A stretch of 32,251 nt of DNA from a virus. Below, piece after piece: positions 1 through 32,251 of the stretch. Each line of letters starts with the position of its first letter. Position 1 is the stretch's first letter. Below the pieces are notes generated by a model that did no database searches, was not told the origin of the DNA, and saw only the letters and a list, made by a program, of their open reading frames with translations. The stretch is from IMG/VR virus record IMGVR_UViG_3300045988_093155, one strand, 5' to 3'. The translations under genes were made by a program, and so were the position numbers.

Positions 1-73
1 ACCTCGTACACGGACAAGGCACACTTCAATATAACGCCTATGTTGCAAGCGGAGAAAGAAAAATAAAAAAAAT
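1..73. repeat. Terminal direct repeat copy 1 (assembly overlap or terminal redundancy)
   Basis: Base-for-base identical to 32179..32251 (checked by hand). Confidence 0.95.
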
Positions 74-9807: not shown

Positions 9808-9836
9808 TTGACATTGTTTAAATGACGTGTTACAAT
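9808..9836 (+). promoter_or_regulatory. Sigma-A consensus early promoter
   Basis: TTGACA 9808-9813, 17-nt spacer, TGt-TACAAT 9828-9836. An A/T-tract (UP-like) lies upstream. Confidence 0.8.
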
Positions 9837-10328: not shown

Positions 10329-10525
10329 TATACAAAAATATTTATGATTTTCAAGTTATGGAAACAATAAAAAGAGGCGAAAAAGTTTATTGTACGGACA
10401 AGCGCAATAAAAAGATTTTTGAATTGAACGAGCGCACAGTAAATTCGGTTTTTGAATTGCTTGGAATGGCAGAAAAGGAATCGGGCAGCAATAGGATGGA
10501 ATTTTTTACGGAGGTTAACTCATAA
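10325..10525 (+). CDS. Hypothetical 66-aa protein
   Basis: ORF with a GAGGAGG SD. Confidence 0.6.
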   Translation: MIYKNIYDFQVMETIKRGEKVYCTDKRNKKIFELNERTVNSVFELLGMAEKESGSNRMEFFTEVNS

Positions 10526-10824: not shown

Positions 10825-11036
10825 TGTTTGAAAATGGTGTCAAAGGGTATGTAAAAACGGTAGCGGTTGTCAAAGTAAATTTTCCGATTGATTATAACGA
10901 CAACGAAGATATAAAATGCGCTCATTGCCCTTATTTAGGCAAGAATGACAGAATATGTCTTTTAAACAATGAAGTTATAGCATATCCTTATAAATACGTA
11001 GGGCAAAAATGTCCGCTCAGGAGGGTTGACGAATGA
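10824..11036 (+). CDS. Cys-containing hypothetical protein
   Basis: 70 aa with a TAATG overlap. Cys motifs are CAHCP and C..N...CP. Confidence 0.55.
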   Translation: MFENGVKGYVKTVAVVKVNFPIDYNDNEDIKCAHCPYLGKNDRICLLNNEVIAYPYKYVGQKCPLRRVDE

Positions 11037-11581
11037 AGTTTAGAGATTTAACCGATGAAGATATAGAAGTGCGCGTCCAAAGCGTAAAACTAAATCCGGA
11101 CAAATCTCCGAAAGGTGTAATCTTGCTGCTATACAAAAATGCTCGCGTTGATATGAATATCCTTGATGAAACTGTGGGGGCTGAAAACTGGCAACGAGAA
11201 CATTACGAATGCAAAGGAAATTTGTTTTGCCGTGTAGGAATTAATGTCAATTATAAAGATAATGACCTCACAGAAAAATGGGTTTACAAATCCGATTGCG
11301 GAAGTGAAAGCAATACTGACGCGCAAAAGGGAGAAGCGAGCGACAGCTTTAAACGTGCATGTTTTAATTGGGGGGTAGGTCGAGAACTCTATACAAGCCC
11401 TTTTATATGGGTAAACGCTGATAAATGTAATATTATAAACGAAAAATGCTATGACCGTTTTTCAATTAAAAAAATTGTAATCGAAAATAAAAAAATTGTC
11501 GCATTGTCGATTATTAACAATTCGATAAAATCAGACAGTATCAATGACAAAAGGTGTTTCGTATGGAAATCACAAAATTAA
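11033..11581 (+). CDS. Rad52/22-family (Sak-like) single-strand annealing protein
   Basis: GEASDSFKRACFNWGVGRELY matches the conserved Rad52/Sak motif (..SDa.KRa...fGiGreLY). The gene sits in a block with SSB and nuclease genes. Confidence 0.8.
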   Translation: MKFRDLTDEDIEVRVQSVKLNPDKSPKGVILLLYKNARVDMNILDETVGAENWQREHYECKGNLFCRVGINVNYKDNDLTEKWVYKSDCGSESNTDAQKGEASDSFKRACFNWGVGRELYTSPFIWVNADKCNIINEKCYDRFSIKKIVIENKKIVALSIINNSIKSDSINDKRCFVWKSQN

Positions 11582-12036
11582 ACGCTTTTGCCGTGTTAGG
11601 TCAAGCCGTTTCTCAGTTGGAGGACGGCAAGACTTACACGGTAGAGATTAAAGAGAAAAAACAAAAACGAAGCCGTGAAGCTAACGCATACGCATGGGCG
11701 TTACTTGATAAACTTGCGGCAAAACTGCATACTCCCAAAGAAGATATTTATCGAGATGTAATAAAAAACATCGGCGGAAATAATGAAACGGTTTGCGTTC
11801 AAAATAAGGCGGTAGAACGACTTTGCGAGGGGTGGAAGCGTAACGGCATAGGGTGGGTATTCGATACGTTTGAGAGCAAAATAGAGGGGTGCACGAATGT
11901 CATTTTATATTATGGCTCATCGACATATGACAGCGCGCAAATGCACCGCTTAATAGATTTAATTGTTCAAGAATGCAAACAACAAAACATTGAAACGCTT
12001 ACACCCGAAGAATTAGCGAGGCTGAAATATGAATAG
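11563..12036 (+). CDS. NinB-like / HNHc_6 N-terminal-like recombination-associated protein
   Basis: ATG 11563 follows an AAAGGTG SD. KRSREANAYAWALLDKLA resembles the RSxxQNxxxW motif of lambda NinB and related phage proteins (memory). Confidence 0.55.
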   Translation: MEITKLNAFAVLGQAVSQLEDGKTYTVEIKEKKQKRSREANAYAWALLDKLAAKLHTPKEDIYRDVIKNIGGNNETVCVQNKAVERLCEGWKRNGIGWVFDTFESKIEGCTNVILYYGSSTYDSAQMHRLIDLIVQECKQQNIETLTPEELARLKYE

Positions 12037-12316
12037 CATTATAAAAGGCAACGAAAACGGCAGATGTTTCATTTGCGGCAAATATTGTCAAACTGAATGT
12101 CACCACATTTTTGGCGGAGCTAATCGCAAAAAGTCTGAAAAATTAGGACTAAAGATAGATTTGTGCCATAAATGCCATAATGAACCGCCTCACGGCGTGC
12201 ATTTTAATAAAATAATAAATATTTATATTAAGGCATTAGGGCAACAACAAGCAATGCAGTTTTATAATTGGACTATTGAAAAATTCATACAAGAAATAGG
12301 GAGGAATTATATTTGA
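12029..12316 (+). CDS. HNH-type nuclease, Ref-like small protein
   Basis: CFICGKYCQTECHHIFGGANRKKSEKLGLKIDLCHKCHNEPPHGVH shows a CxxC..HH..N..CxxCH arrangement, as in the small HNH/Ref-like proteins of Firmicutes phages. Confidence 0.65.
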   Translation: MNSIIKGNENGRCFICGKYCQTECHHIFGGANRKKSEKLGLKIDLCHKCHNEPPHGVHFNKIINIYIKALGQQQAMQFYNWTIEKFIQEIGRNYI

Positions 12317-12534
12317 CACAATGCGAAAAAATAATTGATTATATTCATGTTAATGGTTCTATAACTCCGCTTGACGCGCTCCGCGAATTTGGTTGTATGA
12401 GATTGGCAAGTAGAATAACGGACTTAAAACAACAAGGATATGAAATTAGAAAAACAATGGAAAACAATAAAAACAGATATGGCGATGTCGTAAGATATGC
12501 GCGATATACATTGAAAGGGGTAAACAATGAATAA
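12313..12534 (+). CDS. Winged-helix/HTH DNA-binding protein
   Basis: TTG start 8 nt after GGGAGG. GSITPLDALREFGCMRLASRITDLKQQGYEI...YARYTL fits the small phage HTH family with the RLaaRI.dLk..Gy.I pattern. Confidence 0.6.
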   Translation: MTQCEKIIDYIHVNGSITPLDALREFGCMRLASRITDLKQQGYEIRKTMENNKNRYGDVVRYARYTLKGVNNE

Positions 12535-12916
12535 TATTTGTATTATCGGGAATTTATGCTCACAGCCCGAATTAAAATCAACACAAAGCGGCGTTATGGT
12601 GTGCGCTGTCAGCGTAGCTGTTCCGCGTGATTATAAGGTAAATGGCGAAAAAGTAACCGACTTTATGCCGTGCGTGTTTTGGAGACAAAAAGCTGATTTT
12701 GTTTCTCGATATTTTAACAAAGGCGATAAGATAGCAGTAGAGGGCAGTCTTGAAAGCCGAAAATATACCGACAAAGAGGGAAAAAATCGTATAACGTGGG
12801 AAATAATCGCAAACAAAGTTGGTTTTTGTGGAAAAAGAGAAAGGCAAGAATCCGCCGAACCAAATGTGCAATCCCCAAATGAATCGCCATTTGGAGATGA
12901 TGAATTGCCGTTTTAA
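12527..12916 (+). CDS. ssb: Single-stranded DNA-binding protein
   Basis: An OB-fold pattern (NNICIIGNL...PELK.T.SG......SVAV.R......TDF...V.W...A......KG....VEG.L..R.Y.......R...E) plus an acidic C-terminal tip DDELPF. Confidence 0.9.
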   Translation: MNNICIIGNLCSQPELKSTQSGVMVCAVSVAVPRDYKVNGEKVTDFMPCVFWRQKADFVSRYFNKGDKIAVEGSLESRKYTDKEGKNRITWEIIANKVGFCGKRERQESAEPNVQSPNESPFGDDELPF

Positions 12917-12923
12917 AAAAGTA

Positions 12924-12952
12924 TTGACATAGTAGCAAATTTATGTTATAAT
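12924..12952 (+). promoter_or_regulatory. Sigma-A consensus promoter
   Basis: TTGACA 12924-12929, 17-nt spacer, TGt-TATAAT (TATAAT 12947-12952). Confidence 0.8.
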
Positions 12953-12964
12953 AATTATATCAAA

Positions 12965-13015
12965 GGTTGTTATTTAAGTAGCAGTTAAATAACAATGCTA
13001 AACTGAATAACAACC
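12965..13015 (+). promoter_or_regulatory. Leader element with mutually exclusive helices
   Basis: There is a perfect 11-bp hairpin (12967-12977 with 12985-12995). Alternatively, 12965-12974 pairs perfectly with 13006-13015. Confidence 0.5.
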
Positions 13016-13022
13016 GCATTTC

Positions 13023-13070
13023 CCGTGTGTTTTGAATACTGCTACTATTCAAGGCACACGGATTTTGTTT
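13023..13070 (+). terminator. Strong intrinsic terminator between promoter 12924 and the replication gene
   Basis: 16-bp stem (13023-13038 with 13046-13061, two G-U pairs), 7-nt loop, then ATTTTGTTT. Confidence 0.75.
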
Positions 13071-13088
13071 ATAAAAAGGGGTGAAATA

Positions 13089-13856
13089 ATGGAATCGGAT
13101 AAATTGAAAGGAATCAAGCTTAACAAAGACGGGTACGGTTTTATTCCAAAGATGGTAATGCAAGACGAAAATATAAGCATTGCCGCAAAGGCAATATATT
13201 CTTATTTTTGCAGTTTTACGGGCGCGGGAGATTGTTGTTTTCCTACTCGAAAACGAATCTGTTTTGATATGGGAATCTCAAATGATAGTTTGGGAAAATA
13301 CATAAAGCAGCTTGCCGATAACGGTTATTTAATAGTCGAACAAGTAAAAGAAAATGGCAGATTTTCGCACAACATATATGCTTTACCCGATACGAAATTA
13401 CCGTGTCCGAAAATTTCCGATACGGAAAAAACCGAATACGAAAATTTGGACACTAAAAATAACAATAATAAAATTAACAATATTAATAAAAATAACAGTA
13501 TTATTAAGAAAGAAGGTAAGAGCGGATATGCCGAAATTCTTTCATCAGTCAATGATGACAGTTTAAGAGATTTGTATTATGAGTTTATAAAAATGCGAAA
13601 GCTTATAAAATCGCCGATGACAGACAGAGCGTTAATAATGCTTATAAAAAAAGTTAACGAATTGGAAACATCGATTGACGGTCAAAAGGCATTACTTGAA
13701 ACAGCAATTATAAATAATTGGAAAAGTGTATACCCATTGAAACAGGGAAACGAAAAGCCGCAAAAGGATAATTCCAAATATGCGCTTGATGATATGGCAG
13801 CTATTGAACGGAAAAAGAGGCTTGAAAAAATAAGAAGGGGGCAGGGCAATGAATGA
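13089..13856 (+). CDS. Replication initiator / replisome organiser (N-terminal winged helix, DnaD-like C-terminal domain)
   Basis: ATG 13089 follows AAGGGGTG (the track ORF 13032 start lies in the leader hairpin). The N-terminus (AKAIYSYFCSF...CFPTRKRICFDMGISNDSLGKYIKQLADNGYLIVEQ) looks like a wHTH. The C-terminus (LYYEFIKMRKLIKSPMTDRALIMLIKKVNEL...AIINNWKSVYP) fits the phage replisome-organiser C-terminal domain. An Asn-rich linker separates them. Confidence 0.7.
   Translation: MESDKLKGIKLNKDGYGFIPKMVMQDENISIAAKAIYSYFCSFTGAGDCCFPTRKRICFDMGISNDSLGKYIKQLADNGYLIVEQVKENGRFSHNIYALPDTKLPCPKISDTEKTEYENLDTKNNNNKINNINKNNSIIKKEGKSGYAEILSSVNDDSLRDLYYEFIKMRKLIKSPMTDRALIMLIKKVNELETSIDGQKALLETAIINNWKSVYPLKQGNEKPQKDNSKYALDDMAAIERKKRLEKIRRGQGNE
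13455..13510 (+). repeat. AT-rich iteron-like tract inside the initiator gene (candidate origin)
   Basis: AAATAACAAT at 13457-13466, AAATTAACAAT at 13471-13481 and AAATAACAGT at 13490-13499 lie in a nearly pure A/T stretch. It encodes the NNNNKINNINKNN linker. Confidence 0.4.
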
Positions 13857-17025: not shown

Positions 17026-17054
17026 TTGACAAAACGCCCGAAATAGTATATAAT
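17026..17054 (+). promoter_or_regulatory. Sigma-A consensus promoter
   Basis: TTGACA 17026-17031, 17-nt spacer, TATAAT 17049-17054. Confidence 0.8.
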
Positions 17055-17076
17055 AATATAAAATGAGGTGAATATT

Positions 17077-17433
17077 ATGCAGTTTAAGATTGATTATCCA
17101 AAACCTAAAACATTATGGACAAAAAGATTCAGCTTAAACTGCTACTATTCGGGTGTTCATTGGGCGGTAAGGAAAAAAGACGCTGATTATTGGCATTTAC
17201 TCACTTTATCAGCAATAAAAAGTTTAAAGCCTACAAATAAACCTGTTATATTAACTTTTTATTTCAATGACGGATTAGATATATCCAATCACGCCGCTAT
17301 TGCCAAAATGATAGAGGACGGATTAAAAGGCAGAATAATACAAGACGATAATAGAAAATTTGTAAAAGGTCACGAATATTATTTTCACGATAAGGATTAT
17401 ATCCTTGTAGAGATTAGAGAGGTAGAGCAATGA
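17077..17433 (+). CDS. RusA-like Holliday junction resolvase
   Basis: ATG 17077 lies 7 nt after GAGGTG. The size is about 118 aa. GLDISNHAAIAKMIEDGLKGRIIQDDNRKFV resembles the RusA acidic motifs (D.sN..K...D.l....i.DD). Confidence 0.55.
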   Translation: MQFKIDYPKPKTLWTKRFSLNCYYSGVHWAVRKKDADYWHLLTLSAIKSLKPTNKPVILTFYFNDGLDISNHAAIAKMIEDGLKGRIIQDDNRKFVKGHEYYFHDKDYILVEIREVEQ

Positions 17434-23818: not shown

Positions 23819-24013
23819 ATGAGAATAATTAAACACGGTAATTATACCCCCCAAATGTATAGATTAGAGTGTAAGAAGTGCGGAACTATATGGGTAGAAG
23901 ATGAACGGAAATTATATGTATTGATTCGCGGCAGCGTAGATAATGGAAAAAGATATGTGTTGGATTGCTGCCCTGTGTGCGGAACTATGGGAGAAACAGA
24001 AATAAAATCTTGA
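23819..24013 (+). CDS. Zinc-ribbon small protein
   Basis: 64 aa. CKKCG...CPVCG. Confidence 0.6.
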   Translation: MRIIKHGNYTPQMYRLECKKCGTIWVEDERKLYVLIRGSVDNGKRYVLDCCPVCGTMGETEIKS

Positions 24014-24038
24014 CAAAACAGGACACAATTGATATAAT
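24010..24038 (+). promoter_or_regulatory. Sigma-A consensus promoter (P-a)
   Basis: TTGACA 24010-24015, 17-nt spacer, TGa-TATAAT (24033-24038). Confidence 0.8.
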
Positions 24039-24044
24039 ATAAAC

Positions 24045-24114
24045 GATGAGTTTTTTTATTTTAATTTCCTCTTGTAAAACGCTATGAGTTGTTAGCCATA
24101 GCGTTTTATTTTTA
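24045..24114 (+). ncRNA. Candidate small RNA 1 (about 70 nt), or a leaderless 13-codon mini-ORF
   Basis: It runs from the predicted start site just after P-a to terminator 24076-24114. It is U-rich with UUUCCUCUU at 24065-24073. ATG 24046 would open MSFFILISSCKTL. Confidence 0.4.
24076..24114 (+). terminator. Rho-independent terminator
   Basis: AAAACGCTATG (24076-24086) pairs with CATAGCGTTTT (24097-24107) over 11 bp. ATTTTTA follows. Confidence 0.7.
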
Positions 24115-24119
24115 TATGC

Positions 24120-24148
24120 TTGACAAACGTGGAAAGATTTGATATAAT
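24120..24148 (+). promoter_or_regulatory. Sigma-A consensus promoter (P-b)
   Basis: TTGACA 24120-24125, 17-nt spacer, TGa-TATAAT (24143-24148). It is nearly the same design as P-a. Confidence 0.8.
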
Positions 24149-24154
24149 AAAATA

Positions 24155-24257
24155 GACAGGAAGCATTGCAAGGCTTGGGATAGGAATAACCTACCTATCC
24201 CCTTGCCTGTCACAATAACGGGTATGAGGTTATAACAGAAATCTTATAGCCTTTTTT
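24155..24257 (+). ncRNA. Candidate small RNA 2 (about 100 nt), or a structured 5' leader of the tRNA/capsid transcript
   Basis: The predicted start site coincides with the foot of a three-segment hairpin: 24155-24159 with 24207-24211, 24168-24173 with 24201-24206, and 24178-24184 with 24194-24200, with a 9-nt loop. A second hairpin and T6 follow at 24228-24257. Confidence 0.45.
24228..24257 (+). terminator. Weak or partial terminator
   Basis: GGTTATAA pairs with TTATAGCC (one G-U) with an 8-nt loop. TTTTTT follows. Confidence 0.5.
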
Positions 24258-24268
24258 ATTTGCTATAA

Positions 24269-24342
24269 TGCGGCATAGTGTAAAGGTAGCACGCAAAACT
24301 TTGACTTTTGACGTAGAGGTTCAATCCCTTTTGCCGCAACCA
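24269..24342 (+). tRNA. tRNA-Gln (anticodon UUG), CCA encoded
   Basis: Folded by hand. Acceptor TGCGGCA/TGCCGCA (7 bp). D stem GTGT/GCAC with D loop AAAGGTA. Anticodon stem CAAAA/TTTTG with loop CTTTGAC. Variable loop ACGT. T stem AGAGG/CCTTT with loop TTCAATC. Discriminator A, then CCA. Confidence 0.9.
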
Positions 24343-31919: not shown

Positions 31920-32251
31920 GTGGCGAAAACAATCGGGGATTACGTTAAAATCGGTGGGCGAACATGGAATGTAAAAGTAAAAGAAATTTCAGAAAACTTT
32001 AATATCTTAGATACTGAAAATGCGGGGCGTGTTATAAACAAAGGCGCAATGACACTTGACCGAATCGGAACATTTTTTGGGCATAAAGTAACTTTTTTCA
32101 GAGATAAAGCAAGCATTAGCGAATATGACGAATTATTCATGTATTTAGCAACACCACGGAACACCGGAATCGCTGTTGACCTCGTACACGGACAAGGCAC
32201 ACTTCAATATAACGCCTATGTTGCAAGCGGAGAAAGAAAAATAAAAAAAAT
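31920..32251 (+). CDS. 5' part of the wrap-around tail gene (putative distal tail protein); continues at 74..152 once the 73-nt overlap is collapsed
   Basis: GTG 31920 lies 5 nt after GAGGTG. The frame is open to the end of the window and is in phase with the stop at 150-152. Confidence 0.6.
   Translation, partial: MAKTIGDYVKIGGRTWNVKVKEISENFNILDTENAGRVINKGAMTLDRIGTFFGHKVTFFRDKASISEYDELFMYLATPRNTGIAVDLVHGQGTLQYNAYVASGERKIKK
32179..32251. repeat. Terminal direct repeat copy 2
   Basis: Identical to 1..73. Confidence 0.95.

What the first reader, a model, noticed from the sequence alone, without database searches (positions are those of the whole stretch)
12924..13088. Riboregulator-like leader with mutually exclusive helices and complementary loops gating the replication module
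Consensus promoter 12924-12952 is followed by about 110 nt of dense self-complementarity before the replication gene SD, not by a gene. Four things are seen directly. (i) A perfect 11-bp hairpin TTGTTATTTAA (12967-12977) / TTAAATAACAA (12985-12995) with loop GTAGCAG. (ii) GGTTGTTATT (12965-12974) is also perfectly complementary to AATAACAACC (13006-13015), a mutually exclusive pairing. (iii) A 16-bp hairpin (13023-13038 with 13046-13061, loop CTGCTAC) followed by ATTTTGTTT, which is an intrinsic terminator. (iv) The apical segments AGTAGCAGT (12977-12985) and ACTGCTACT (13038-13046) are perfectly complementary over 9 nt. The two hairpins could therefore kiss or refold into an antiterminator. 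Transcripts from the early operon reading through ssb must also cross this terminator. The element probably controls entry into the replication and middle genes. It could instead be a stand-alone RNA of about 110 nt. I recognise no known riboswitch or antitermination class here.
Basis: seen in the sequence. Interest (0 to 1): 0.7.

Follow-up and report, generated by a model that had tools for sequence, protein, structure and literature searches.

The report
Phage replication-gene leader RNA with kissing loops
Between the ssb gene and the replication-initiator gene, this gut phage encodes a roughly 110-nt RNA with its own strong promoter and terminator; its first hairpin loop and its terminator loop stay perfectly complementary across about a dozen relatives although the loop sequences change, and no described RNA family matches it.

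Summary
The window RNA folds far better than shuffles (z = -5.9). The element is conserved: I found homologues in about 20 loci, roughly 12 lineages, from gut and other metagenomes. In nearly every one a sigma-70-type promoter lies just upstream and the RBS of a replication-module gene follows. Stems differ completely between lineages but keep pairing. G-U pairs make sense only on the + strand, so this is an RNA. The two 7-nt apical loops, L1 on the 5' hairpin and L2 on the terminator, are perfectly complementary in every member, in 12 different sequence versions and without a single G-U. The mutually exclusive A:A' and A:A'' helices are also conserved, in 10 of 13 members tested. No 5'-domain arm is complementary to the terminator arms, so "refolds into an antiterminator" is not supported. 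Rfam 15, GenBank phages and the literature searches gave no match. Best reading: a promoter-proximal attenuator or small RNA that gates the replication module. Its only link between the 5' domain and the terminator is a loop-loop kiss, within one molecule or between a finished RNA and a nascent one. The mechanism is inferred, not shown.

The parts
12527..12916 (+). ssb gene, the last gene of the upstream operon. The element starts 8 nt after its stop codon.
   Evidence: Pfam SSB, E = 9.5e-30. The same ssb-then-element order is seen in L211, L088, L008, L016, L394, L402 and L496.
12924..12952 (+). Sigma-70/SigA-type promoter: TTGACA, 17-nt spacer, TGnTATAAT (extended -10). The start site is inferred at about 12959-12961.
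   Evidence: 12/12 match with TG. A promoter-like site lies at the same place in nearly all relatives.
12965..12977 (+). Arm A, GGTTGTTATTTAA, the shared 5' strand of the two alternative helices.
   Evidence: A pairs with the downstream A'' region better than shuffles in 10 of 13 members.
12978..12984 (+). L1, GUAGCAG, the 7-nt apical loop of the first hairpin. It is the kissing partner of L2.
   Evidence: L1:L2 is 100% paired in 13 sequences, with compensatory changes at 5 of 7 positions.
12985..12995 (+). Arm A', TTAAATAACAA. It pairs with A to form hairpin H1, which displays L1.
   Evidence: I5. H1 is the MFE of the growing transcript until position 13009.
12996..13003 (+). Spacer. UGCUA 12996-13000 pairs with UAGCA 12979-12983 of L1 in the window's MFE.
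   Evidence: This pairing is not significant across the family.
13004..13015 (+). Arm A'', TGAATAACAACC. It pairs with A (12 bp) and displaces A', giving the thermodynamically preferred 'closed' form.
   Evidence: (I6).
13023..13038 (+). 5' arm of the terminator hairpin.
   Evidence: L211 has a U-A to U-G change in this stem, tolerated only as + strand RNA.
13039..13045 (+). L2, CUGCUAC, the 7-nt loop of the terminator hairpin and the exact complement of L1.
13046..13072 (+). 3' arm of the terminator (13046-13061) and U-rich tail AUUUUGUUUAU (13062-13072).
13076..13856 (+). SD AAGGGGTG (13076-13083) and the replication-initiator gene (ATG 13089, stop 13856). This is the first gene that every transcript must cross the terminator to reach.
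   Evidence: Pfam HTH_36, E = 3.3e-10, plus weak DnaD_N. It has 557 homologues at E <= 1e-5.

Best explanation
The element is a conserved, promoter-proximal RNA of about 110 nt. It serves both as the leader of the phage replication module and, when terminated, as a small RNA.

Shown:
- It is an RNA read on the + strand, with its own consensus promoter and an intrinsic terminator placed 10-25 nt before the RBS of the next gene.
- Its 5' domain is bistable. Hairpin H1 (A:A') displays loop L1 and forms first during synthesis. The more stable helix A:A'' replaces it once A'' has been made.
- The 7-nt loop L1 and the 7-nt terminator loop L2 are held perfectly complementary by selection.
- Nothing else connects the 5' domain to the terminator.

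Inferred:
- The terminator stops most transcripts, both from this promoter and from the upstream ssb operon. It therefore limits expression of the replication initiator.
- The L1-L2 kiss is the regulatory contact that sets or senses this decision.
- L1 sits in a proper 7-nt loop only for a short time on nascent RNA, whereas L2 is displayed permanently on finished RNA. The most economical model is therefore that L2 meets the L1 of a nascent chain. That L2 may be the chain's own or, as copy number rises, that of accumulated terminated RNAs.
- This would be a same-strand equivalent of the countertranscript control of plasmid rep genes.
- The direction of the effect, more or less read-through, is not known.
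For: - Structure and strand: the window RNA has z = -5.9. All 14 members tested fold better on the + strand, 13 of them by 7-24 kcal/mol, with 4-10 G-U pairs each.
- Conservation with compensation: L088, L213, L214, L211, L051/L008/L009/L218/L496, L016, L076, L497, L498, L239 and L001 were all found through rep-gene neighbourhood or covariance models. Neither route requires loop complementarity.
- All of these have 6-8 nt of perfect L1:L2 complementarity.
- Twelve loop versions occur: GTAGCAG, GTTGCAG, GTACCAG, GTTGCGG, TTAGCGG, TTAGCGC, GTCGCAG, AGCGCGAA, CCGTTGC, AAGACGG, GTGCAG and GTGCAAG.
- Pair counts: L1:L2 is 100% paired, 5 of 7 pairs change on both sides, there are no one-sided changes, and 0 of 500 shuffles do as well; slid controls give 24-46% paired.
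- L394 and L402 have nearly identical backbones but swap A-U for U-A in the loops.
- Bistability: A against the A'' region gives p <= 0.004 in 10 of 13 members. The order of folding is shown.
- Position: the element sits in front of at least three unrelated initiator types, or of an HNH or small gene followed by rep.
- Six of the 7 close rep relatives looked up carry it.
- My scan for this architecture gave 49 real against 6 decoy hits in 3.2 Mb.
Against: - No experiment shows termination, read-through or kissing.
- There is no antiterminator pairing, so how a kiss would change termination is unclear. A loop-loop kiss is geometrically compatible with a closed terminator hairpin.
- The pairing of L1 with the spacer in the 'closed' form is not significant across the family. 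L1 may therefore remain accessible in mature RNA.
- In L214, L076 and L182 the MFE already displays L1.
- L221 is followed by about 330 nt of non-coding sequence rather than a gene, and L182 precedes a TnpB-like ORF. The link to rep is therefore strong but not absolute.
- The loop difference between L394 and L402 fits neutral drift as well as selection for new specificities.
Confidence: 0.45

Rival explanations
1. It is a stand-alone stable small RNA. The L1-L2 kiss is an intramolecular tertiary contact that compacts and stabilises the RNA, or builds a binding surface for a protein. The RNA then acts on other targets, and its place between ssb and rep only reflects a module boundary where a promoter and a terminator are useful.
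For: - It has its own consensus promoter and a strong terminator, a 5'-terminal helix and a 3' hairpin, as in typical stable sRNAs.
- The terminator has no competitor.
- L394 keeps the same leader arms while the rep module is swapped.
- L182 and L221 are not followed by rep.
- The linker of 12-27 nt can span an intramolecular kiss (my estimate).
Against: - A conserved competitor helix (A:A'') that destroys the L1 hairpin is hard to reconcile with a purely static fold.
- No second conserved target was found. The 13-nt L2-like copy at 17138-17150 is absent from relative L394, which has the same loops.
- The RBS of the next gene always follows within 10-25 nt.
Confidence: 0.25
2. It is the RNA part of a protein-dependent antitermination unit, like lambda PR'-6S RNA-tR' with Q, or N with nut. 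A phage protein loads at the promoter or on the hairpins and makes RNA polymerase read through the terminator into the replication and later genes. The loops are protein recognition elements.
For: - The architecture of consensus promoter, short terminated RNA and gene block is the same as lambda PR'-tR' (established knowledge).
- The terminator is not opposed by any RNA structure, so read-through needs something else.
- Small wHTH (HTH_39) and AbrB-like genes lie upstream.
- In the window and in L211 an L1-like copy, AGTAGCA(A/G), sits in the promoter spacer.
Against: - Protein recognition does not explain why L1 and L2 must be exact complements in 12 different versions with no G-U.
- The promoter-spacer copy is absent from L394, L402, L088 and L213.
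- No Q, N or LoaP-like gene was identified, though I did not search for one exhaustively.
Confidence: 0.15
3. It is a DNA-level element: operator or iteron sites for the initiator, part of the origin, or a recombination hotspot made of inverted repeats.
For: - The loops are exact inverted repeats with no G-U, as protein half-sites would be.
- AATAACAA-like arms recur in iteron-like repeats inside the window's rep gene at 13454-13503.
Against: - The stems carry 4-10 G-U pairs that would be A-C mismatches on the other strand, and every member folds better on the + strand.
- A promoter upstream and a U-tract downstream are conserved.
- Arm sequences do not recur in the downstream rep genes of the other members. 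L394 and L402 share the window's arms but have a different initiator and no such repeats.
Confidence: 0.04

Closest known systems
Countertranscript-driven attenuation of plasmid rep genes (pT181 repC, pIP501 repR)
   Same: A leader with an intrinsic terminator lies directly upstream of a replication-initiator gene. A 5' hairpin loop is the recognition site for a complementary RNA loop. The decision is made on the nascent transcript. The loops define specificity. (pT181 attenuator as described in PMC3753616, PMC4878617 and PMC5703833.)
   Different: No opposite-strand promoter was found here; the complementary loop lies on the same strand, in the leader's own terminator. There is no preemptor or antiterminator pairing. 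The host elements are phages, not plasmids.
Same-strand antisense RNAs of P4 (CI RNA) and P1/P7 (c4 RNA); Rfam C4, RF01695
   Same: From established knowledge: regulator and target are made from the same promoter in the same direction. Short complementary segments covary between related phages. P4 CI acts by premature termination ahead of the replication (alpha) operon.
   Different: There is no covariance-model match. The fold is different. Here the complementary segments are two 7-nt hairpin loops, one of them the terminator loop. No processing signals are known, and the hosts are Firmicutes/Clostridia.
ColE1 RNA I / RNA II kissing complex
   Same: Fully complementary 7-nt loops are suited to a stable loop-loop helix. 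The 5' RNA domain has alternative folds, and the system controls replication (established knowledge).
   Different: Those two RNAs are antisense transcripts of one region, and the outcome is primer formation. Here both loops are in one sense RNA, and an initiator gene lies downstream.
phi29-family packaging RNA (pRNA)
   Same: It is a phage RNA of similar size in which two loops of the same molecule are complementary, covary between relatives and pair between molecules (established knowledge).
   Different: There is no Rfam match. The position is at the replication module, not at a phi29-type genome end, and the second loop here belongs to a terminator hairpin.
Lambda PR' - 6S RNA - tR' unit
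   Same: A constitutive consensus promoter is followed by a short terminated RNA in front of a gene block.
   Different: That unit depends on the Q protein and a DNA site. It has no conserved loop-loop complementarity or bistable 5' hairpin.

Membership tests
Any Rfam 15 family (riboswitches, T-box, C4, pRNA, sRNAs) | A covariance-model match at or near the gathering score. | tested here: not met
   The best hits over the element score 12-18 bits against gathering scores of 60-72, with E > 1. Nothing was found in 14 member loci or in the whole window except tRNA-Gln.
Intrinsic (Rho-independent) terminator | A G+C-containing hairpin immediately followed by a U-tract on the transcribed strand. 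| tested here: met
   16-bp stem with 6 G-C pairs, 7-nt loop, tail ATTTTGTTTA. The same holds in all relatives, at -17 to -32 kcal/mol. Function was not tested.
pT181/pIP501-type antisense attenuator | A countertranscript made from a promoter on the opposite strand of the leader. | tested here: not met
   No promoter-like site with 9 or more of 12 matches lies on the - strand near 12900-13300. This was only a simple consensus scan.
pT181/pIP501-type antisense attenuator | A preemptor (antiterminator) pairing that competes with the terminator. | tested here: not met
   A, A' and the A'' region show no complementarity beyond shuffles to either terminator arm in 13 members. Fisher p ranges from 0.40 to 0.95.
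pT181/pIP501-type antisense attenuator | A leader terminator directly upstream of a replication-initiator gene. | tested here: met
P4 CI / P1 c4 same-strand antisense RNA | Regulator and target segments on one transcript, complementary and covarying between relatives. | tested here: met
   L1 and L2 lie on one transcript, with 12 covarying versions. This is a resemblance in logic only.
P4 CI / P1 c4 same-strand antisense RNA | The C4 fold (Rfam RF01695) and release of the RNA by processing. | tested here: not met
   No C4 match. Processing is not testable with these tools.
Riboswitch or T-box leader | A conserved ligand-binding or tRNA-binding aptamer, plus an expression platform with terminator and antiterminator alternatives. 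| tested here: not met
   No Rfam match. Apart from the loops, sequences are not conserved between lineages. There is no antiterminator.
phi29-type pRNA | Loops that pair between molecules to build a ring on the packaging motor. | not testable with these tools
   Only the complementarity of two loops of one RNA is seen. There is no Rfam pRNA match.
Lambda Q-type antitermination unit | A Q-like protein and its DNA binding element at the promoter. | not tested
   An L1-like copy lies in the promoter spacer of the window and L211 only. I made no search for Q-like proteins.

The most novel reading that the evidence does not exclude
The terminated leader is a self-targeting, same-strand 'countertranscript'. 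Its terminator loop L2 kisses the transient L1 hairpin of nascent copies of the same leader. Initiator expression therefore falls or rises as phage genome copies accumulate. The 12 loop versions would be specificity classes, a phage counterpart of plasmid incompatibility groups, that let related phages regulate replication independently in one cell.
Probability: 0.25. Interest if true: 0.85.

Novelty: new variant of a known kind. Interest (0 to 1): 0.7.

Why it matters
- RNA kissing-loop control of replication initiators is textbook for plasmids, but it is barely known for tailed phages of Firmicutes.
- In this element both partners of the kiss are written on one strand of one short transcript, and one of them is the loop of the terminator itself.
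- If it works in trans, it would be a minimal copy-number sensor and a natural set of orthogonal RNA regulators: 12 loop pairs on interchangeable scaffolds.
- If it works in cis, it would be a new way in which a tertiary contact tunes an intrinsic terminator.
- Either way it gives a defined, testable regulatory node for the replication module of uncultivated gut Clostridia phages.
- It is also a clean candidate for a new RNA family.

Tried and rejected
- **Known RNA families:** Rfam on the element, the whole window and 14 member loci gave nothing. ARAGORN found no tRNA-like gene at the element.
- **GenBank phages:** blastn found no match. tblastn with the initiator found only distant relatives, below 60% identity. 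The rep regions of four cultured phages (C. perfringens, C. difficile, Listeria, S. agalactiae) lack the architecture.
- **ssb relatives:** 80 ssb-related IMG/VR loci at 38-54% identity contain none, so the family is narrow.
- **Exact-hairpin pattern:** the scan found only a chance palindrome in a giant-virus contig.
- **Loop-pattern scans of IMG/VR:** these returned mostly chance hits. The real ones are L182, L394, L402 and L339.
- **Arms as initiator iterons or operators:** rejected.
- **A second target at 17138-17150** (13-nt copy of the L2 region): not conserved in L394.
- **L1-like copy in the promoter spacer:** seen only in the window and L211.
- **An 'anti-L1' spacer as a conserved feature:** not significant.
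- **An antiterminator:** no complementarity.
- **A leader peptide:** the ATG in A' follows from stem conservation, has no SD, and the ORF lengths are inconsistent between relatives (reading).
- **Literature:** searches found no description of this element. A catalogue of 8495 unnamed phage RNA candidates (PMC10690425) could not be checked, because its tables are not held.

Full report
**1. The observation.**
The window is a roughly 32-kb human-gut Caudoviricetes contig; the same genes occur on ENA ERZ917298 k127_4901. Every ORF I examined lies on the + strand, and no integrase turned up among the ten ORFs I scanned.

The finding lies between ssb (12527-12916, Pfam SSB) and a replication-initiator gene (ATG 13089 to 13856; HTH_36 plus weak DnaD_N).
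- The promoter is a 12/12 sigma-70-type match with an extended -10, at 12924-12952.
- An 11-bp hairpin, 12967-77 with 12985-95, carries the loop GTAGCAG.
- The alternative pairing is 12965-74 with 13006-15. It extends to 12 bp in the MFE.
- A 16-bp terminator hairpin, 13023-61, carries the loop CTGCTAC and the tail ATTTTGTTTA.
- The loops with their closing pair are complementary over 9 nt.

The + strand RNA folds at -41.1 kcal/mol, z = -5.9, and no shuffle does as well. The - strand is 8 kcal/mol weaker. No + strand terminator-like site lies between the early promoter at 9808 and 13023. Transcripts of the ssb operon therefore also meet this terminator.

**2. The element is conserved, and it is an RNA.**
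Relatives came from five independent routes.
- Rep-gene neighbourhoods in IMG/VR, GTDB genomes and JGI metagenomes.
- Exact-protein look-ups of close initiator homologues.
- Covariance models R1 and R2, built on the two-hairpin fold.
- A scanner of my own for 'hairpin loop complementary to terminator loop'.
- Two loop-pattern scans of IMG/VR.

The members are listed here.

| Locus | Coordinates | Notes |
|---|---|---|
| L211 | 1137-1245 | |
| L394 | 10410-10518 | |
| L402 | 312-420 | |
| L088 | 2371-2474 | contig binned with a Roseburia MAG |
| L213 | 1010-1116 | |
| L214 | 1025-1133 | |
| L051/L052 | 1505-1614 | |
| L008/L009 | 2010-2120 | |
| L218 | 1533-1643 | |
| L496 | 1010-1119 | |
| L016 | 2363-2470 | |
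| L498 | about 880-1000 | |
| L497 | about 1385-1490 | |
| L076 | 2347-2457 | |
| L239 | 168-270 | |
| L001/L033 | 2023-2134 | |
| L010 | about 1890-2010 | |
| L221 | about 340-460 | |
| L339 | - strand | |
| L182 | 357-469 | |

In nearly all of them a sigma-70-type promoter ends 5-12 nt before the first helix. A U-tract follows the second hairpin, and the RBS of the next gene follows within 10-25 nt.

Between lineages the stems share almost no sequence, yet they still pair. In the excerpt alignment A6, 92% of cells are paired and 20 of 22 pairs change on both sides. No shuffle of 500 does as well, and slid controls give 24-46% paired.

All 14 members tested fold better on the + strand, 13 of them by 7-24 kcal/mol, with 4-10 G-U pairs each. 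The close relative L211 differs from the window by a U-A to U-G change in the terminator stem. This excludes a purely double-stranded-DNA reading.

**3. The loop-loop complementarity is the key conserved feature.**
L1, the apical loop of the first hairpin, and L2, the terminator loop, are exact Watson-Crick complements in every member. Twelve versions occur.

| L1 / L2 | Members |
|---|---|
| GTAGCAG / CTGCTAC | window, L211, L394, L182 |
| GTTGCAG / CTGCAAC | L088, L213, L402 |
| GTACCAG / CTGGTAC | L214, L339 |
| GTTGCGG / CCGCAAC | L051, L008, L009, L218, L496 |
| TTAGCGG / CCGCTAA | L016 |
| TTAGCGC / GCGCTAA | L498 |
| GTCGCAG / CTGCGAC | L076 |
| AGCGCGAA / TTCGCGCT | L497 |
| CCGTTGC / GCAACGG | L221 |
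| AAGACGG / CCGTCTT | L010 |
| GTGCAG / CTGCAC | L239 |
| GTGCAAG / CTTGCAC | L001 |

Eleven lineages were found by methods that do not reward complementarity, namely gene neighbourhood or covariance model. All eleven show it.

L394 and L402 were caught by a pattern that left the two central loop positions free. They have almost the same backbone but carry A-U versus U-A at the same loop pair.

On alignment A6 the seven L1:L2 pairs are 100% paired. Five of the seven change on both sides, and none shows a one-sided (G-U) change. Stems tolerate many G-U pairs and the loops tolerate none, as expected if a 7-bp contact must be as strong as possible. The calculated duplex energy is -9 kcal/mol for 7 bp and -12.4 for 9 bp.

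My architecture scan gave 49 real against 6 decoy hits in 3.2 Mb. It gave 1 real against 3 decoy in 80 unrelated ssb loci.

**4. The bistable 5' domain.**
Arm A can pair with A' to form hairpin H1, which presents L1 in a 7-nt loop. It can also pair with A''. Complementarity of A to the region downstream of H1 exceeds shuffles in 10 of 13 members, at p <= 0.004 each.

In the window, H1 is the MFE of the growing chain until position 13009. A:A'' takes over from 13012. In most members the A:A'' form is 3-10 kcal/mol more stable than any fold that leaves L1 unpaired.

I first thought a covarying 'anti-L1' spacer sequesters L1. That is true in the MFE of the window and of some relatives, but it is not significant across the family, so I do not claim it.

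**5. What is not there.**
- No arm of the 5' domain is complementary to either terminator arm beyond chance. The terminators are very stable. A classical terminator/antiterminator switch is therefore not supported.
- No - strand promoter for a countertranscript was found.
- The arms are not initiator iterons. L394 and L402 share the window's arms but have an unrelated initiator and a DnaC-like loader. Arm words do not recur in the rep genes of other members.
- The 13-nt copy of the L2 region at 17138-17150 is not conserved in L394.

**6. Context.**
The upstream gene is ssb in the window, L211, L088, L008, L016, L394, L402 and L496. Downstream there are several arrangements.
- An initiator, of at least three kinds: the HTH_36/DnaD_N type, the L394 type and the L016/L076 type.
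- An HNH gene followed by the initiator (L213, L214, L008, L496).
- A 150-170-aa gene followed by the initiator (L010, L051).
- Two exceptions: L221 is followed by about 330 nt of non-coding sequence, and L182 by a TnpB-like ORF.

Six of the seven close initiator relatives looked up carry the element. More distant rep or ssb relatives and cultured phages do not. The family is real but narrow, in phages assigned to gut Clostridia where any host is named.

**7. How it most likely works.**
Shown: a conserved + strand RNA unit made of promoter, bistable 5' hairpin, terminator and complementary loops, in front of the replication module.

Inferred: most transcripts stop at the terminator, which yields an abundant RNA of about 110 nt and keeps initiator expression low. 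The L1-L2 kiss is the only designed contact between the two domains, so it is the regulatory step.

L1 sits in a kissing-competent loop mainly on nascent RNA, while L2 is always displayed. I therefore favour a kinetic model in which L2 meets nascent L1. That L2 could be the chain's own as it emerges, or that of finished RNAs as they accumulate.

The trans version would be a same-strand analogue of pT181/pIP501 countertranscript attenuation (PMC3753616, PMC4878617, PMC5703833). It would also resemble P4 CI and P1 c4 (established knowledge). Regulatory use of terminator loops has precedent (PMC11979758).

The sign of the effect is unknown. I put this at 0.45. The rivals are a stand-alone sRNA with an intramolecular tertiary kiss (0.25), a protein-dependent Q/N-like antitermination unit (0.15) and a DNA-level element (0.04).

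**8. Novelty.**
There is no Rfam 15 match and no annotated GenBank phage counterpart. Three literature searches found no description. A large catalogue of unnamed phage RNA candidates exists (PMC10690425) and could contain it, but its tables were not available.

I rate the element a new variant of a known kind, kissing-loop RNA control of replication initiators. The distinctive twist is that both loops lie on the same sense transcript and one of them is the terminator loop.

Noticed in passing
window 24010-24118: A second perfect 12/12 promoter with TG (24010-24038) is followed by a short RNA ending in a strong terminator hairpin at about 24074-24109 (z = -5.2). The terminator loop region contains GUUGUUA, which is complementary to UAACAAC in arm A'' of the leader. 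This is a 7-mer match, and I estimate the chance probability at about 0.03.
   Followed up: partly
window 24120-24342: A third perfect promoter with TG (24120-24148) drives a structured stretch of about 110 nt (-36 kcal/mol, z = -3.9). It is followed directly by tRNA-Gln (24269-24342). There is no Rfam match for the structured part.
   Followed up: partly
window 17026-17150: A fourth 12/12 promoter (17026-17054) precedes ORF 17068-17433. Inside that ORF, 17138-17150 repeats 13 nt of the terminator-loop region (ACTGCTACTATTC). The repeat is absent from the homologous ORF of relative L394, so it is probably chance.
   Followed up: yes
window 12930-12938; L211 1104-1113: The promoter spacer holds an L1-like copy: TAGTAGCAA in the window and AAGTAGCAGA in L211. 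It is not present in L394, L402, L088 or L213.
   Followed up: partly
window 13385-13505: Iteron-like direct repeats lie inside the initiator gene: CCGATACGAAA three to four times, and TAAAAATAACAATAATA three times at 15-18 nt spacing. They fall in the Asn-rich linker region and are a candidate origin of replication.
   Followed up: partly
L182 357-469, ORF 469-1707: An element with the same loops as the window (GTAGCAG/CTGCTAC), a short first hairpin and an extra hairpin sits directly upstream of a TnpB-like ORF in a 53-kb viral contig. Model R2 also hits it, at E = 0.037.
   Followed up: partly
L221 470-830: In this member the leader is followed by about 330 nt without an ORF, ending in another terminator near 790-830. 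This may be a longer non-coding RNA. There is no Rfam match.
   Followed up: partly
L394 8097-12092 versus window 11033-13856: L394 is a relative of the window phage, with similar Rad52-like, NinB-like, HTH_39 and SSB genes and the same leader arms. Downstream of the leader it has a different initiator plus a DnaC/IstB-like loader. The leader therefore sits at a module exchange point.
   Followed up: partly
L213 1131-1496, L214 1147-1497, L008 2135-2497, L496 1135-1497: In several lineages an HNH_3 endonuclease gene is inserted between the leader and the initiator gene.
   Followed up: no
window 35-51 and 32213-32229: The same 17-nt hairpin and flank occur at both ends of the window. The window is 56 nt longer than the ENA contig (32251 against 32195). 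This suggests a terminal overlap of a circular or circularly permuted assembly.
   Followed up: no
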